Assembly: GCA_035221665.1 (NCBI GenBank)
Contig: CM069160.1
Span: 2,976,001 to 3,040,000, forward strand
Reading direction: 5' to 3'
Length of the DNA: 64,000 nt
From: Okamejei kenojei
Lineage: Eukaryota
Shown: positions 24,001-60,100 of the stretch, one piece after another
How the letters are laid out: each line of letters starts with the position of its first letter
Numbering within the stretch: the first letter of the stretch is position 1
Position numbers: made by a program

Positions 24001-27000
24001 AGGAGAAGAGGAAAGAGAGAAGGTAGAGAGAAGGGAGAGAGAGTAGGGGAGAGGGAGGAGGAGAGAGAGAAGAGGAGAGAAAGAAGAGAGTTGGGGGAGA
24101 GAGGGGGAGAGAGAGAAGAGGAGAGAGAAAGAGAGAAGGGGCGAATGAGAAGGGAGAGGGAGGGGGGGGGGAGAAAGGCAGAGAGAGGGAGAGAGCGAGG
24201 GGAGGGGGAGAGAGAGAAGGTGAGAGAGAGAGAAGGGAGAAAGAAAAGGGAGAGACAGAAGGGAGAGAGAGCGTGGAGAGAGAGAAGAAGGGAGAGAGAA
24301 GGGGGAGTCGAGAGTGTGGGGGACATGTTCCCACATAAGCCATATGTCACTGGGCAATCTGAACCTAAGAACCAAGTTGTAAGCGGCCGAAGGTGCGCAT
24401 CCCCCGGGACAGCCCCAACTATCCCACGAACCACTCCGCGGGCTGTGGGTCGGCTGGAGTGGAGGTGTGGGACAATATTCATCCCTCCACAGTGAAGTGA
24501 TGGACGCGGGGGCCTGGACCAATCGCTGACAAGTCCCGCCCCCCGGCAACGTCACGTCCGTTATTTGACTGTTCTGTTGAGGGGCAATCGGTCCGTTGGC
24601 TTGTAGGCGAAGCCGCCTTTCGGGTAGGTGGCGTTTCGCAAAGCGGACTATCGGTGAGTTTGCTTTTCGGCGACGCAGCCTTTCGGTTAATTGGCTTTTA
24701 GGCATCCCACCCTTTCGGTTAGTTTGCATTTAGGCATCCCACCCTTTCGGTTAGTTGGCGTTTCGGCTTCACTTCCATTCGGTTATTTGGTTCTTTTCTT
24801 CCGCTTCTCCTCCATCGACGCCACGTCCGGGTACCAAAGCCAGTCCGAAATACAGAAATTGACATAGATAAGTGTTCGTGATAAACAAAAATATTTGAAA
24901 CAATTCAAACTGTTTTTCCCAATGAGTTGTCACAAGGTCATACAGACGGACGAAATGGGCAGTCCCAGGTATTCTCCGGCAAAACCTTCGTATCACTGGA
25001 AGATCGCTAGGCTCTCGGCATTGACAGGTGTTGTGAGACGTGCAGCCGTTTGTCCCACAGAGCTGCGCTGTTTCGACGGAGAGCCTGAATAAAGAAAACG
25101 CGGTTATACATCCTCGCTGAGGCTTGGATGTAAGAATATCCCGCCTGGCCAGAGAGAGTCGTAAAATCATAAACATAGAGCTTCGCAACACAGAAGTATG
25201 CCCTTCCGCCCATCTCGTCTATGCTGACCATGTTGGCATGTTGGGCTGTCCCATTTAGAGTCATGGAGTCAGAAAACACGAAGACAGGACAATAGACAAT
25301 AGACAATAGGTGCAGGAGTAGGCCATTTGGCCCTTCGAGCCAGCACCGCCATTCAATGTGTTCATGGCTGATCATCCCCAATCAGTACCCCGTTCCTGCT
25401 TTTTCCCCATATCCCCTGATTCCGCTATTTTAAGGACCTTGGCCCAACTTGCCCATGGTGCTCGATGCTAATCCCACCTGCCGAAGTTTGGCCCAAGTCC
25501 TTCTGAACGTTTCCTACGTACGTTTCTGACCAAATATAATGTTTCTGTGGTGAAGGGGGCTTTTGGTACATTTGCCCTTCATCAGTCAGTGTGTTTGGTA
25601 AAACATGGTGCTGCTGTACGCCATGTCGTTGAGGCCGCGCTTAGAGTTCAGATTTTGGTCAACCTGTTACAGAAACGAATTTAAGTCAGCTGGAGAATCG
25701 ACTGGAACTCCAAAGTAGATGTTGGGATTTCATTCCTTAGATCACAGAAGGCTGAGGGTTTATCTTATAGAGGTGTAAAAAATAATGAGTGAAATCGACA
25801 GAGTGAATGCACTGAGTATTTTACTCAGAGGAGGAGAGTCAAGAACCAAACGTTCATAGTTTAACTTGCGAAGATAAATAATAGGAACCTGAGGGGCAAC
25901 CTTTTCACTCAGTATGTGGTGGGAATACGAAATGAGCAGCCAGGGGAGGTAGTTGACGCAGGTACTAAAACGACATTTAAAATACGCTTGGACCGGAACA
26001 TGGGCAGGGAATATTTGCAGGGATATGGGCGATACGCGGACAATTGAGACTGGTTTAGATGCGTTATCTTGATCTGCAGGGGCGCGTTTTGTTAAACAGC
26101 CCGTATCCGTGTTGTCTACTTCTCTGACTATTTGGCCCATCACACTATAAACCATCCCCATCCATACAACTGTGCAAATAACATAAAATAAATATATCTC
26201 ATAAGCAGTTTCATTCTGCGGTTTATGTTCTTTGGAAGTTTACACAACTTCCCGAGACATTTGGTTCATTTGTAGATCTCTTTGCGTGCATGCACTCCCG
26301 TTCAATTTTGTTTCATAGTGTTCAATGCAATTACATTTGTAATTTGGAAAATACATTCGGTGTATCACTTAATGCAGTTGGTTACTGTGGCAACAAGAAC
26401 CATGGGCCATTTGATCACGTTTTTCAGTTCCTCTCTGAATTTTCTCTGGGATACTGCATAAATAAAGGTGTTCGTGCAAGAACTCAAAGACTTCAGCATG
26501 TACCCTGATAACTCAGCAATAGTGAAGGGGTCATTGTAACTTGCATCCAAAAATTGCGTGTCAGTAAATTGCACACATATGTAACATATTAAATTAACCA
26601 TCCACAAGAGAATAAAGCTGCCAGATATGGCAAGGAGCAAAACGATGGATTTTCTGCGGTTCTCCATCTCTGGGTCAGTGTGCTTCGCAGTACTGTTGTT
26701 TGCACGTAGTCCGCTCCTCACTCGATTAGCCAGTATAATGTGTCTGATGGTCAGGGAATTAAGCAGCAAGATCAACACATAGGGCGCAAATGGGCTCAAA
26801 ATCGTTTCCAGCCACAGAAATGCCGCCCAAAAGGGTAATGTGTAGAAGCTTGATTTTACATAGCAGGACCACTCAACGCCATTAAGTACCTCCCGAGGTT
26901 CGTATATAAAATAGTACGGAATGTTTTCCACAATACTAGCAGAAAACACCACCGCTATCACGATAGTCACATTCTTTTCAGTACAATATTTTGTTCGTAG

Positions 27001-57100: not shown

Positions 57101-60100
57101 AGGTTTCCGTTCCCTCTGCTCAGCGGTTTGTGCTCCGCGGTCGTCGGACCTGGAGGGAGGCCCGTTCTGCCCTGCTCCGCACTGTTTCCAGGTCCAGACG
57201 ACGGGCGGAACAGCACCGGACCCCTGCCCCTCGCTACCGCCCTGGGCAGAGGGTCTGGCTGTCCAGCCGAGACCTCGTCGTCCGCGTTGAGTCCAGTAAG
57301 TAGACACTCCGGTTTATTTGGCCCATTCACTGTTCTCAGAGTCAGCAACCGTTCTGCTGTCCGCCTTAGGCTGCCCCGGTCTATGCGTATTCACCCCACC
57401 TTCCATGTTACCCGGGTTAAGCCTGAATCTTCCAGCTCCCTGTCTCCCGCTCCTGTGCTACCTCCGCCACCCCGCATCATTGACGGTGGTCCCGCGTACA
57501 TGGTGAAGTGACTGCTGAAGCCCCGGCGGCGTGGCAGAGGGATCCAGTACCTGATTGACTGGGAGGGTTATGGACCAGAGGAGAGGAGCTGGATCCCATG
57601 CCCGTGACATCCTGGACCCTTCCCTCATCCGTGGTTTTCATCAACAGCATCCGGATCCGCCAAGGAGGCCGCCAGAAGGTGTCCGTGGGAGAGGGGCTCC
57701 TGTCACACCTGCCTCGTCTCCAGACAGTTGAGAATCTCCACATTCCTCCCCTGATCTAATGATGAGTTACACCTGCATTCACTCTGCTGCCCTCATCAGT
57801 CAATGGTTATATGCCTGCTATCTACATTCACTCCATATCGACTTATCCGTTCAGTATTCACTCGGTTACCTTCGCGTTTGGATGTTGGTTTTCTCCAGCA
57901 CTTGTCTCGTTGTCCTGCATTCGTGCCCTCTCCATTCCCTCGAATTGTGACACGGTTAACTTGAGTCCCATTAGCTGCAACTCATCAGGGGTGTGATTCA
58001 TTCCAAATAAAATATTTTCACCACAGTGAGGACGTTTATTTTTAGATCTAGGTTAGAATGAAGTAAATTTGCGCCGGTGTGGGTGCCCTTAAGCCTTGGT
58101 AATCTCCAGAATACTTAGTATTTACTGGTGTAATTCTACATTTTGAATTCATTTCATTTGAAATCCATCCAAAATGTATCCAAATTGCTTAGATATTAAC
58201 ATCGAAGTTAGGTGCAGGAGTAGGCCATTCGGCCCTTGAAGCCAGCGCCGCCATTCAATATGATCCTGGCTGATCATCCAAAATCAGTACCCCGTTCCTG
58301 ATTTCTCCCCATATCCCTTGTTTCCTATGAGCTTTCTCGAACTCTCTCTTGAATACATTCAGTGAATTGGCCTCCACTGCCATCTGTGGCAAATAATTCC
58401 ACAGATTCACAACTCCCTGGTGAAAACGTTTTCCCTCATCTCAGTCCTAAACGGCCTACCCTTTATTCTTGGATGATCAGCCATGATCATATTGAATGGC
58501 GGTGCAGGTTCGAAGGGCCGAATGGCGTACTCCTGCAACTATTTTCCATGTTTCTATGTTTCTATGAACGTTGACCCCTGGTCCTGGACTCTACCAAAGT
58601 CGGGCAAGTTTTTTCTGCATCTGGCCTGTCCAATCCCTTAAGAATTTTATTTGTTTCTATAAGATCCTCTCTCATCCGTTCTATAAGATCATCGCTCATC
58701 CTTCCAAATTTCCGTAAATATAAGCCCAGCTGATCCATTCTTTCATCATATATCAGGCTGCAAGGAGGGACCTTCGGTCAAACTGAAGGAAGGGTGAGGT
58801 GACGCCGCTAATGGTGGCGGCGGAGCAGCACGGCCTCGAAGCTGTGGGTCAGGCTGCGCGCCGAAGGTCTCTCGTGGCTGGCGGCCATCAAGGCAGAGCT
58901 GGACGCGACGCAATGTTTGATTGAGGGGGGGGGGGGGGGGCGACCAGTCAGACCGACGCCTTGGGAATGGGCCCACCTTGCTACGGTCAGGGAGATGCGG
59001 AATAATCGGGGATGGAAGAACAGCAACAGGCCCACCTCAGCTCTCACCACCGGCAACATGTTAATGGACGAATAAATGTGTGTAATGGTGCTGATCAAAA
59101 TGAGATTCGTGGTGCCAAAAATATAGTGATTGCAATGTATATCAGCAGTAAACATGGGATCAAAATCGCTGTTATAAATTGCCGCAGTATAAGTAAAATA
59201 TACTGTGATAAACTCATTTATTGAAACAAAAAATCCTTTTAGCCTTATCGGGTCTGAACCTTAGCCAGACCCATCAATCAAATCTGCTGAGATTTTCCCT
59301 CCTCGCCTCCAATTATTATGGAAAAGACAGAAACTCGCATGCAGGCGGTGTCTTCATCGGAGTTAACAATATCTTTCCTTGTTTTGAATGAACTGATTTA
59401 GACAGTGACTCTGGGCAAATCTGGTGTCAAGCTGCACTTCAACGTCAGTCATTACGGATCGGAAGCTTTTACGGACCATTTGACATGAAATCTGAGCCTC
59501 GTTTAGATTTTAATTTCAACATCTCGAAAATTAACGACACGTCACGCTCTCCACTTATCATCCTGGCTCCACTTATCGTCCCAGCTGTAGATTGGTCTGA
59601 CCGCACATAAGGCGAACCAAAAGAGGCTCTTCAGCAAGCCCTGTCTGACCCTATACTGGAAAATTACCTGTCCCAAAAAGTCACTTACCAGGCGTGATGA
59701 TACAAGTGGCACCGAAAATATTTTAGATTTATTGTTGAATTCGCAGCCAGTTTTAATTCCGGAGGTTTCATCGTGTGCTGGAATCAGCGATTATCATATT
59801 ATCCAAGCAAAACTGCACACAAAGATTAACGTTTTTTCAAAACCACCACGTAAAATTTCTCTCTGCAGAAAAGTGAACAGTGAGGAATTTAAAGACTTGG
59901 CAAAAACTGGGGAAAGATTTCTTCAACCTGCAACCAGATAGAAGACCAGTAAAAGACAACTGGGTGTTGCTGAGGGACTCTTTAAATGACGTTGTTACAA
60001 ATCATGTTCCGCAAAAACTCATGAAGGGCCGTATGTGTCCTCCATGGTTTTCGGCTAAACTGAAACGTCTCTGCAGGAAGAAAGAGAGGTTATATATCTC

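What the first reader, a model, noticed from the sequence alone, without database searches (positions are those of the whole stretch)
26365..58650. MHC class I gene embedded head-to-head inside a GPR139-like orphan GPCR array
Seen: an intact GPCR (ATG 32535, minus) and an MHC class I gene (ATG 45461, plus) are divergently oriented 12.9 kb apart. A GPCR pseudogene lies to the left and an orphan GPCR upstream region to the right of the MHC gene, so GPCR units flank it on both sides. Known: GPR139-like genes are strongly expanded in cartilaginous fish with unknown function; in mammals odorant receptors adjoin the MHC class I region and M10 class Ib molecules are co-expressed with V2R receptors. 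Inference: this may be a co-duplicating MHC-I/orphan-GPCR cassette, a candidate chemosensory or immune receptor system in elasmobranchs. It could also be a chance transposition.
[Added by the scan's program, not by the reader: the finding's places include an assembly gap (unread letters, written N; its length is only estimated) at 49851 to 50047, 51641 to 51773. Whether the letters on both sides are continuous or in frame is not known: test that first.]
Basis: partly seen in the sequence, partly recalled or inferred. Interest (0 to 1): 0.72.

Follow-up and report, generated by a model that had tools for sequence, protein, structure and literature searches.

The report
Broken MHC-I copy in skate GPCR array
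An intact orphan receptor gene of a skate sits 12.9 kb from an incomplete, probably dead copy of an MHC class I gene, so a working paired cassette is unlikely, but this receptor family shares a chromosome with MHC class I genes in ten sharks and rays.

Summary
The adjacency is real. The "MHC class I gene" is not intact as assembled, and the cassette idea is not supported.

- **GPCR:** the minus-strand gene (ATG 32535, two exons, stop at 26365) is intact. It belongs to a skate-specific clade of a large elasmobranch receptor family that databases name "GPR139". That name is weak: GPR139 ranks only 16th-17th among solved relatives.
- **Class I copy (plus strand):**
  - It has a true leader exon (45461-45527).
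  - Its alpha-1 exon (51382-51640) needs two frameshifts and ends at an assembly gap.
  - Its alpha-3 exon (55396-55637) lacks its last eight codons.
  - No alpha-2, transmembrane or cytoplasmic exon is present in the assembled letters.
- **Setting:** the copy lies in a GC-rich block between remnants of GPCR flanks, as if it replaced the body of a third GPCR unit.
- **Count:** three GPCR units or remnants face one class I copy, so nothing repeats as a cassette.
- **Best reading (0.6):** a decaying classical-type class I duplicate inside a birth-and-death GPCR array.
- **New lead:** in 10 of 10 comparable elasmobranch species, this GPCR family and class I genes lie on the same chromosome-scale sequence. 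Distances could not be measured.

The parts
26365..27278 (-). GPCR exon 2: 303 codons plus a split Ala codon, stop at 26365-26367. It encodes TM1 (end) to the C-terminus.
   Evidence: Open frame. Acceptor tatgcag|CA at 27279/27278. Pfam 7tm_1 E 3.1e-23. 92% identity to a Rhinoraja longicauda protein. Full length, and shares the family's invariant columns.
27279..32465 (-). GPCR intron, 5,187 bp, filled with LINE fragments.
   Evidence: GT..AG ends. RVT_1 match at 30504-30983. Repeat copies.
32466..32535 (-). GPCR exon 1: ATG at 32535, 23 codons plus 1 base, donor G|GTAAGC.
   Evidence: tblastn of N-termini of full-length family members gave E 2e-8 to 4e-7 for 6 of 10 queries. It is the only copy in the window.
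32680..33315 (.). 5' flank of the intact GPCR. It has a paralogue to the right of the class I copy. 32927-33296 is a LINE 3' fragment.
33651..34899 (.). 45-bp minisatellite, 27.9 copies, in the intergenic stretch.
43251..43958 (.). Two collinear blocks (43251-43394 and 43782-43958) paralogous to the 3' side of the GPCR pseudogene (2017-2160 and 3243-3421). Possibly the 3' flank of a lost third GPCR unit.
   Evidence: 71.5% over 144 bp and 76.5% over 179 bp.
44084..45200 (.). 14-bp minisatellite, 81.7 copies, just upstream of the class I leader.
45461..45527 (+). MHC class I leader exon: ATG at 45461, donor G|GTGGGT, phase 1.
   Evidence: 19/23 identity to the leader of P0121, E 1.3e-8. Sequence.
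45528..51381 (+). Class I intron 1 with LINE debris, long degenerate (GT)n arrays and gap 1 (49851-50047).
51382..51640 (+). Class I alpha-1 exon (acceptor ttccag|GC). It is readable only in three frames (51384-51449, 51448-51534, 51537-51638), has a TGA in the entry frame, and its end abuts gap 2.
   Evidence: The three pieces are 65-86% identical to skate class I proteins. Pfam MHC_I on pieces 2 and 3.
51641..51773 (.). Assembly gap 2. It is the only place where an alpha-2 exon could still be.
   Evidence: No alpha-2 in 51774-55400.
55396..55637 (+). Class I alpha-3 exon (acceptor cacag|TT), 85-94% identical to skate class I. It lacks the last 8 codons that 6 of 6 skate homologues have. It is followed by GTG TGA and then AATAAA.
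   Evidence: Pfam C1-set E 2e-8. Nurse shark class I structure 6LUP, E 1.2e-17.
56960..57508 (+). LTR-retrotransposon pol C-terminal fragment downstream of alpha-3, where TM/cytoplasmic exons would be expected.
   Evidence: Pfam SH3_Tf2-1 E 2.2e-8. No TM/cytoplasmic match in 55600-64000.
57953..58668 (.). Orphan copy of the GPCR 5' flank, without exon 1.
   Evidence: 79.8% over 535 bp to 32680-33211, plus a weak continuation. GC content drops here from 0.53-0.59 to 0.41.
3637..4263 (-). GPCR pseudogene: exon 2 pieces in three frames. Residues ~144-199 and both ends are missing.
   Evidence: tblastn with the intact exon 2 gave 37-47% identity, E 1.5e-27 to 2e-3. N-terminal queries also hit 4263-4183.

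Best explanation
The window is skate DNA from a tandem, birth-and-death array of an elasmobranch-expanded orphan class A GPCR family, auto-named 'probable GPR139'. One unit (32535 to 26365, minus strand) is an intact two-exon receptor gene and presumably works as an ordinary seven-helix receptor. A second unit (3637-4263) is an old pseudogene.

A third unit seems to survive only as flanks (43.25-43.96 kb and 57.95-58.67 kb). Between those flanks lies a GC-rich block of about 15 kb. It carries a minisatellite, a partial classical-type MHC class I gene in the opposite orientation, and a retrotransposon fragment.

The class I copy is most likely a decaying duplicate that arrived by segmental duplication or ectopic recombination. 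It no longer makes a membrane class I chain. The neighbourhood therefore reflects physical linkage on the MHC-bearing chromosome, not a functional receptor/class I pair.

Shown: the exon anatomy, the defects, the flank paralogy, the compositional contrast and the same-chromosome pattern. Inferred: the replacement event, the loss of function, and that the shared chromosome is the MHC chromosome (from Verissimo et al. 2023).
For: GPCR intact:
- Canonical GT-AG intron, and exon 1 homologous to family N-termini.
- 7tm_1 match, and a full-length alignment.
- It sits in a skate-only clade of 9 sequences (7 Rhinoraja, 1 Leucoraja, the window), support 0.92-0.996. All 7 Rhinoraja genes are on one 41,491,963-bp sequence.

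Class I defective:
- The three alpha-1 pieces each match skate class I at 65-86% but in frames 0/1/0, with a TGA in the entry frame.
- 0 alpha-2 hits with 6 skate proteins over the whole window, and with 4 alpha-2 queries over 51774-55400.
- 0 credible TM/cytoplasmic hits with 5 queries over 55600-64000.
- Alpha-3 stops 8 codons short of 6 of 6 homologues and runs into TGA.
- A retrotransposon fragment follows.

Replacement of a GPCR unit:
- Flank paralogies on both sides.
- A GC-rich block of 0.51-0.58 over 42-58 kb, against 0.40-0.47 on the flanks.
- GC3 of 0.77-0.91 for the class I exons against 0.49 and 0.30 for the GPCR exons.

No other host gene: of 97 long ORFs, only 7tm_1 (1) and C1-set (1) are not transposon families.

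Linkage: 10 of 10 comparable species have family members and class I genes on a sequence of identical length, and 37 of 43 GPCR hits of those species lie on it. All elasmobranch class I genes map to the MHC (PMC10751288, section 9 read).
Against: - Both alpha-1 frameshifts lie 105-191 bases from a contig end, next to G runs, where assembly indels are common. RefSeq also flags a little skate class I model as LOW QUALITY.
- Alpha-2 could sit in gap 2, whose length is only estimated.
- TM/cytoplasmic exons are short and could lie beyond the window end, or be too diverged for tblastn.
- The alpha-1 and alpha-3 pieces are otherwise well conserved. The three alpha-1 anchor residues (Y7, Y59, R84; numbering recalled) and both alpha-3 cysteines are present, so any decay is recent.
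- The 3' flank of the intact GPCR unit does not match the other two, and part of the flank similarity is transposon-derived. The 'ghost unit' is therefore only moderately supported.
- Same-chromosome linkage says nothing about distance, and the species are not independent.
Confidence: 0.6

Rival explanations
1. The class I gene is functional in the animal and only looks broken in this assembly. On this reading the frameshifts are consensus errors at a contig end and alpha-2 lies in gap 2. The gene then either ends after alpha-3 as a secreted class I chain (stop plus AATAAA) or has distant TM exons. It would be an MHC-Ia-like gene that happens to neighbour a GPCR.
For: - Canonical leader donor and alpha-1/alpha-3 acceptors, all in phase 1.
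- Pieces 65-94% identical to skate class I proteins, one of them a transcript-length contig.
- Anchor residues kept in alpha-1 (numbering recalled).
- Frameshifts close to a gap.
- AATAAA 4 bases after the TGA that follows alpha-3.
- MHC-Ia-like genes near the Ia gene are reported in elasmobranchs (PMC10751288, section 5).
Against: - The alpha-3 truncation and the missing TM/cytoplasmic exons lie in gap-free sequence, 3.9 kb and more from the gap.
- A splice donor at 55637 would leave phase 0, not the phase 1 of the other class I exons.
Confidence: 0.2
2. One reading: a co-duplicating class I/GPCR cassette that works as a chemosensory or immune receptor pair, like M10 with V2R.
For: - Divergent orientation 12.9 kb apart.
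- GPCR-derived sequence on both sides.
- Family-wide co-location with class I genes on one chromosome-scale sequence in 10 of 10 comparable species.
Against: - One class I copy against three GPCR units or remnants, and no class I beside the other units.
- The class I copy is incomplete.
- Strongly different GC3.
- The intergenic stretch is repeats.
- In little skate, the 2 GPCR-bearing scaffolds and the 3 class I-bearing scaffolds (each 100-212 kb) have different lengths. This is weak evidence, because pseudogenes are not annotated.
Confidence: 0.05
3. The adjacency is an assembly artefact: class I-bearing contigs were wrongly scaffolded, or chimeric contigs were built through the microsatellites.
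For: - Two gaps inside the class I gene.
- The alpha-1 exon sits on a 1.6-kb island between gaps that is mostly (GT)n.
- MHC genes of the thorny skate lie on unplaced scaffolds (PMC10751288, passage).
Against: - The leader exon is in the same gap-free stretch as the intact GPCR (1-49850).
- Alpha-3 is in the same gap-free stretch as the orphan GPCR flank (51774-64000).
- The three pieces keep gene order and strand.
Confidence: 0.08

Closest known systems
MHC-linked olfactory receptor gene clusters of tetrapods (recalled, not from a call)
   Same: A large, fast-duplicating class A GPCR family lies on the chromosome that carries MHC class I genes. Here that holds in 10 of 10 comparable elasmobranchs, and within 12.9 kb of a class I sequence in this window.
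   Different: The GPCR family is different: its nearest solved relatives are galanin and vasopressin receptors, at E 1e-11 to 1e-12. Chemosensory expression is unknown. Distance to the MHC proper was not measured. The class I neighbour here is incomplete.
Class I pseudogenes and gene fragments scattered through vertebrate MHC regions, such as the HLA class I pseudogenes (recalled)
   Same: A partial class I copy with frameshifts and missing exons sits among repeats and unrelated genes.
   Different: It lies inside a GPCR array, apparently in the shell of a lost GPCR unit, rather than among other class I genes.
Elasmobranch MHC-Ia-like genes near the single MHC-Ia gene (Verissimo et al. 2023, PMC10751288, section 5 read)
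   Same: The sequence is classical-type: closest to skate class I proteins, with the alpha-1 anchor residues kept.
   Different: Those genes are described as surrounded by zinc-finger genes. This window has no C2H2 motif and holds GPCR genes instead. No TAP or PSMB domain was found among 97 long ORFs.
M10 class Ib molecules co-expressed with V2R receptors in mouse
   Same: A class I-type sequence lies next to a multigene receptor family.
   Different: M10 genes are intact and form their own family. Here a single broken classical-type copy sits next to a class A receptor, not a class C one. No expression data exist.
Vertebrate GPR139 (orphan brain receptor)
   Same: Class A seven-helix receptor. 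Databases name 98 of the 112 named relatives 'GPR139'.
   Different: GPR139 ranks only 16th-17th of 35 solved relatives and matches only residues 1-191. The family has dozens of paralogues per species, whereas GPR139 is described as a conserved single receptor (abstracts).

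Membership tests
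MHC class I heavy chain gene | Alpha-3 immunoglobulin C1-set domain with its two cysteines. | tested here: met
   Pfam C1-set E 2e-8. Nurse shark class I 6LUP E 1.2e-17. 85-94% identity to 6 skate class I proteins. Both cysteines are visible in the translation.
MHC class I heavy chain gene | Alpha-1 domain of the MHC_I fold. | tested here: met
   Pfam MHC_I on piece 3 (28.5 bits, cut-off 28.3) and on piece 2 (22.5 bits, below the cut-off). The three pieces are 65-86% identical to skate class I.
MHC class I heavy chain gene | Uninterrupted reading frame through alpha-1. | tested here: not met
   Frames 0/1/0 with a TGA in the entry frame. The breaks lie 105-191 bases from a gap, so assembly error is not excluded.
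MHC class I heavy chain gene | Alpha-2 domain exon between alpha-1 and alpha-3. | tested here: inconclusive
   No hit anywhere in the read letters. Gap 2 (51641-51773, length estimated) could hold it, and it was not filled, by rule.
MHC class I heavy chain gene | Complete alpha-3 end plus transmembrane and cytoplasmic exons. | tested here: not met
   Alpha-3 ends 8 codons short of 6 of 6 homologues and meets TGA. No plus-strand match in 55600-64000 with 5 C-terminal queries.
Classical (peptide-presenting) class I | Conserved residues that bind the peptide termini. | tested here: inconclusive
   Y7, Y59 and R84 are present in the alpha-1 pieces (numbering recalled from HLA-A2 and non-mammalian class I). 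The five alpha-2 residues cannot be read.
Classical class I region | Close linkage to TAP1/2 and PSMB8/9. | tested here: inconclusive
   None of 97 long ORFs matches a proteasome or ABC transporter family. Short exons would be missed, and 64 kb is a small field.
GPR139 | Class A (rhodopsin-type) seven-helix receptor. | tested here: met
   Pfam 7tm_1 E 3.1e-23, covering profile positions 2-260 of 260.
GPR139 | GPR139 is the nearest characterised receptor. | tested here: not met
   Among 35 solved relatives, galanin receptor 2 (E 3.2e-12), vasopressin V2, GPER1, PrRP receptor and galanin receptor 1 rank above GPR139. GPR139 has E 3e-8, ranks 16-17, and matches query residues 1-191 only. This is a rank test among solved structures only, not a phylogeny.
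GPR139 | Conserved low-copy gene across vertebrates. | tested here: not met
   Of the best 120 relatives, 112 are named elasmobranch proteins: 24 Heterodontus, 29 Heptranchias, 14 Rhinoraja and others. Reviews describe GPR139 as a highly conserved receptor (abstracts listed).
Elasmobranch-expanded 'probable GPR139' GPCR family | High identity to family members and placement inside the family tree. | tested here: met
   56-92% identity to 9 aligned members. Skate-only clade of 9, support 0.92-0.996.
   Three GPCR units or remnants but one class I copy. Class I queries hit only 45461-45529, 51348-51641 and 55386-55634.
MHC-linked chemoreceptor cluster | Physical linkage of the receptor array to the MHC. 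| tested here: inconclusive
   Same chromosome-scale sequence in 10 of 10 comparable species. Distances are unknown, because the look-up of accession order was switched off.
MHC-linked chemoreceptor cluster | Expression in a chemosensory epithelium. | not testable with these tools
   No expression data are on hand. The catshark sensory-organ paper reports no GPCR among its 50 most specific olfactory/brain genes (PMC11979771, passage).

The most novel reading that the evidence does not exclude
The elasmobranch 'GPR139-like' family may be an ancient MHC-linked receptor cluster, predating the shark-ray split. It would lie close enough to class I genes that class I copies are repeatedly captured inside it. 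That would make it a cartilaginous-fish counterpart of the tetrapod MHC-olfactory receptor linkage, with a possible role in chemosensing tied to MHC haplotype.
Probability: 0.12. Interest if true: 0.8.

Novelty: new variant of a known kind. Interest (0 to 1): 0.4.

Why it matters
For this locus the result is sobering. The class I neighbour is probably a relic, so the window does not reveal a new receptor/MHC machine.

Two things still matter:
- **A neglected receptor family.** A very large elasmobranch GPCR family travels under a doubtful 'GPR139' name. Six literature searches found no description of it. One genome paper notes a relative paucity of GPCRs in cartilaginous fish (PMC8455134, passage).
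- **Chromosome-level linkage.** The bulk of this family sits on the class I-bearing chromosome in both sharks and rays. If the linkage is tight, the old question of why chemoreceptor-type GPCR clusters sit by the MHC could be tested in the oldest jawed vertebrates.

There is also an annotation point: seven skate reference models of 278 residues appear to lack the upstream exon that encodes the start of the receptor.

Tried and rejected
- **Other collections.** Interdigitation in other assemblies therefore stayed unchecked.
- **Supplements.** Supplementary files S1-S9 of PMC10751288 give gene coordinates for elasmobranch MHC chromosomes. They are closed and could bear directly on the distance question.
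- **Missing exons.** I searched for alpha-2 and TM/cytoplasmic exons with permissive tblastn (word size 2, E up to 1000). Only chance-level hits appeared.
- **Shared bidirectional promoter.** Rejected: the 12.9 kb between the genes holds a 45-bp and a 14-bp minisatellite and LINE endonuclease/RT fragments.
- **Zinc-finger surroundings.** 0 C2H2 motifs.
- **RNA genes.** 0 Rfam matches and 0 tRNAs.
- **Protein atlas.** It returned only generic class A clusters.
- **Literature.** Six searches found nothing on this GPCR expansion or its MHC linkage. One search was too loose to be useful.
- **Spliced models.** By rule these were searched exon by exon.
- **Gaps.** They were not filled.
- **Unused tools.** No structure prediction, complex prediction or representative-library search was run, because none would change the verdict.

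Full report
**Source and gaps.** The window is elasmobranch DNA, closest to skates. The GPCR exon 2 is 92% identical to a Rhinoraja longicauda protein and 86% to a Leucoraja erinacea protein. The class I alpha-3 exon is 93-94% identical to a Rostroraja eglanteria class I protein. Nothing suggests human sequence.

There are only two N runs, 49851-50047 and 51641-51773. Gap 1 lies in an intron between degenerate (GT)n arrays. Gap 2 begins 1-2 bases after the last alpha-1 codon and is followed by a 47-bp GT-rich repeat. No frame can be followed across either gap, and I did not fill them.

The adjacency does not depend on the gaps. The gap-free stretch 1-49850 contains both the intact GPCR and the class I leader. 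The gap-free stretch 51774-64000 contains both alpha-3 and the orphan GPCR flank.

**The GPCR.** On the minus strand an ATG at 32535 opens 23 codons that end at a G|GTAAGC donor at 32466/32465. A tatgcag|CA acceptor at 27279/27278 opens a 303-codon frame that ends with the stop at 26367-26365.

- Exon 1 matched residues 1-26/28 of full-length shark and ray family members for 6 of 10 N-terminal queries (E 2e-8 to 4e-7). The output for a seventh query was cut. Three queries have unrelated N-termini. No second copy of exon 1 exists in the window.
- Exon 2 matches Pfam 7tm_1 (E 3.1e-23). It aligns end to end with nine relatives at 56-92% identity and shares the columns that are invariant across the set.
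- The 5.2-kb intron holds LINE reverse-transcriptase fragments.

The gene looks intact.

**What family is it?** Of the best 120 database relatives, 112 are named proteins and all are from sharks, rays or skates. The other 8 come from an unnamed source. 98 of the 112 are auto-named 'probable/putative GPR139'. The rest carry names such as GPER1-like, FMRFamide receptor-like, sex peptide receptor-like, vasopressin V2-like and galanin receptor 2a-like.

Against solved structures, galanin receptor 2 is best (E 3.2e-12). Vasopressin V2, GPER1, PrRP receptor and galanin receptor 1 follow. GPR139 ranks 16th-17th of 35 (E 3e-8) and matches only residues 1-191. I therefore treat 'GPR139-like' as a database label, not as shown membership.

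In a tree of the 120 relatives plus the window, the window's gene sits in a skate-only clade of nine (7 Rhinoraja, 1 Leucoraja, the window; support 0.92-0.996). All seven Rhinoraja genes lie on one 41,491,963-bp sequence. This is the signature of recent tandem duplication.

**Other GPCR pieces.**
- At 3637-4263 on the minus strand, three tblastn pieces in three frames cover residues 31-143 and 200-306 of exon 2 at 37-47% identity. This is an old pseudogene, 22 kb left of the finding's start.
- To the right of the class I copy, 57953-58470 is 79.8% identical over 535 bp to 32680-33211. That target is the stretch beginning 145 bp upstream of the intact gene's ATG. A weak continuation runs to 58668.
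- About half of this right-hand piece is a LINE 3' fragment that recurs about ten times in the window. The rest occurs only in these two places. The homology stops short of exon 1.

**The class I copy.**
- **Leader.** The leader exon (45461-45527, donor G|GTGGGT) is 19/23 identical to a skate class I leader (E 1.3e-8).
- **Alpha-1.** The alpha-1 exon opens at a ttccag|GC acceptor (51382) in the right phase. It then reads in frame 0 (51384-51449), frame 1 (51448-51534) and frame 0 again (51537-51638), with a TGA in the entry frame. Each piece is 65-86% identical to skate class I proteins. Pieces 2 and 3 match Pfam MHC_I, and piece 2 scores below the curated cut-off.
- **Alpha-2.** No alpha-2 sequence was found with six skate proteins over the whole window, or with four alpha-2 queries over 51774-55400.
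- **Alpha-3.** The alpha-3 exon (55396-55637, acceptor cacag|TT) is 85-94% identical to six skate proteins. It matches C1-set (E 2e-8) and the nurse shark class I structure 6LUP (E 1.2e-17). It ends eight codons before all six homologues and runs into GTG TGA, followed by AATAAA.
- **Downstream.** No transmembrane or cytoplasmic exon was found in 55600-64000 with five queries. An LTR-retrotransposon pol fragment lies at 56960-57508 instead.

**How far to trust 'pseudogene'.** The two frameshifts lie 105-191 bases from a contig end, beside short G runs. RefSeq also marks a little skate class I model LOW QUALITY. These frameshifts could therefore be assembly errors, and alpha-2 could be in gap 2.

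The truncated alpha-3 and the missing downstream exons lie in gap-free sequence and are harder to explain away. A splice donor at 55637 would also leave the wrong phase. I put about 0.6 on a dead or dying copy in the setting described, and 0.2 on a gene that is functional in the animal.

**Setting.**
- The 12.9 kb between the two ATGs holds the GPCR 5' flank, a 45-bp minisatellite (27.9 copies), a 48-bp repeat, LINE endonuclease/RT fragments and a 14-bp minisatellite (81.7 copies). That is not a shared promoter.
- GC content is 0.51-0.58 from 42 to 58 kb against 0.40-0.47 around it. It falls to 0.41 exactly where the orphan GPCR flank begins.
- GC3 is 0.77-0.91 in the class I exons and 0.49 and 0.30 in the GPCR exons.
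- Two collinear blocks at 43251-43958 are paralogous to the 3' side of the GPCR pseudogene.

Together these suggest that the class I block occupies the shell of a third GPCR unit. The support is moderate, because the intact unit's 3' flank does not match the other two and some of the flank similarity is transposon-derived.

Among 97 long ORFs, only 7tm_1 and C1-set are not transposon families. There is no C2H2 motif, no Rfam match and no tRNA.

**Cassette test.** The window has three GPCR units or remnants and one class I copy. Class I queries hit nowhere else. Within the window nothing repeats as a cassette.

**Across species.** I could not fetch other elasmobranch genomes. The protein searches do report the length of the contig that carries each protein.

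- In 10 species with a family member and a class I gene both on a sequence of 10 Mb or more, the lengths coincide:

| Species | Shared sequence length (bp) |
|---|---|
| Pristis pectinata | 19,913,265 |
| Narcine bancroftii | 376,162,909 |
| Hemitrygon akajei | 214,355,867 |
| Mustelus asterias | 140,552,254 |
| Heterodontus francisci | 74,466,956 |
| Chiloscyllium punctatum | 81,297,441 |
| Hemiscyllium ocellatum | 49,326,738 |
| Scyliorhinus canicula | 163,470,629 |
| Scyliorhinus torazame | 228,959,330 |
| Stegostoma tigrinum | 31,945,831 |

- That is 10 of 10 comparable species. Of the 43 GPCR hits from these species, 37 lie on that sequence and 6 lie elsewhere.
- Not comparable, because one family is on small unplaced scaffolds, has no contig data, or is absent from the lists: Rhinoraja, Leucoraja, Heptranchias, Rhincodon, Amblyraja, Chiloscyllium plagiosum, Pristiophorus, Hypanus, Mobula (two species), Carcharodon and Cetorhinus.
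- In Leucoraja, the two GPCR scaffolds and the three class I scaffolds differ in length. This counts weakly against tight interleaving.
- Verissimo et al. 2023 (PMC10751288; I read the abstract, sections 5 and 9, and found passages) report that all elasmobranch class I genes map to the MHC. They also report that thorny skate MHC genes sit on unplaced scaffolds. Their text has no occurrence of GPR, G-protein or olfactory.

The family therefore appears to lie on the MHC chromosome in both sharks and rays. The species are not independent, and the distance is unknown.

**Literature.** Six searches found no paper on this GPCR expansion or on its linkage to the MHC. For PMC12294341, PMC11979771 and PMC8455134 I saw only found passages. 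For the GPR139 papers I saw only listings and abstracts.

**Verdict.** The locus is best seen as a new variant of known things: a class I relic inside an MHC-chromosome-linked GPCR array. Its interest comes mainly from the cross-species linkage lead.

Noticed in passing
window 26365-27201 and 32466-32535; proteins P0001-P0005, P0010, P0011: Seven skate reference proteins of 278 residues start at the internal Met of exon 2 (searches show it for P0001-P0005). Shark models of about 324 residues include the N-terminus, which the window encodes on an exon 5.2 kb upstream. The skate models probably lack that exon, and with it the first helix.
   Followed up: partly
window 55638-55654: The truncated alpha-3 exon is followed by GTG TGA, and four bases later by AATAAA. 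If transcribed, this could end a TM-less, secreted class I chain. It may equally be chance.
   Followed up: no
window 42000-58000: A GC-rich block of 0.51-0.58 carries the class I pieces. Class I exon GC3 is 0.77-0.91, against 0.49 and 0.30 for the neighbouring GPCR exons.
   Followed up: partly
window 47643-49812 and 50187-51307: More than 3 kb of degenerate (GT)n/GGTGTGTGTG arrays fill class I intron 1 and flank gap 1. They probably caused the assembly breaks.
   Followed up: no
window 33651-34899 and 44084-45200: Two large minisatellites: a 45-bp unit with 27.9 copies and a 14-bp unit with 81.7 copies. They lie between the GPCR and the class I leader.
   Followed up: no
protein P0127 (Leucoraja erinacea, on a 163,965-bp contig): A little skate 'uncharacterized protein' model is built from repeated, partly out-of-frame alpha-3-like pieces. 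Class I alpha-3 fragments may therefore be scattered in other skates as well.
   Followed up: no
window 1-26000 and 58700-64000: The rest of the window is transposon debris. It includes an LTR-element integrase (6384-7016), a LINE with endonuclease and RT (about 9.6-12.6 kb), RT fragments, one ORF matching a DDE_3 transposase family, and two copies of one element at 59078-60338 and 60350-62445.
   Followed up: partly
The whale shark genome paper notes a relative paucity of GPCRs in cartilaginous fish (passage only). Yet this one family has dozens of paralogues per species in the protein search.
   Followed up: no
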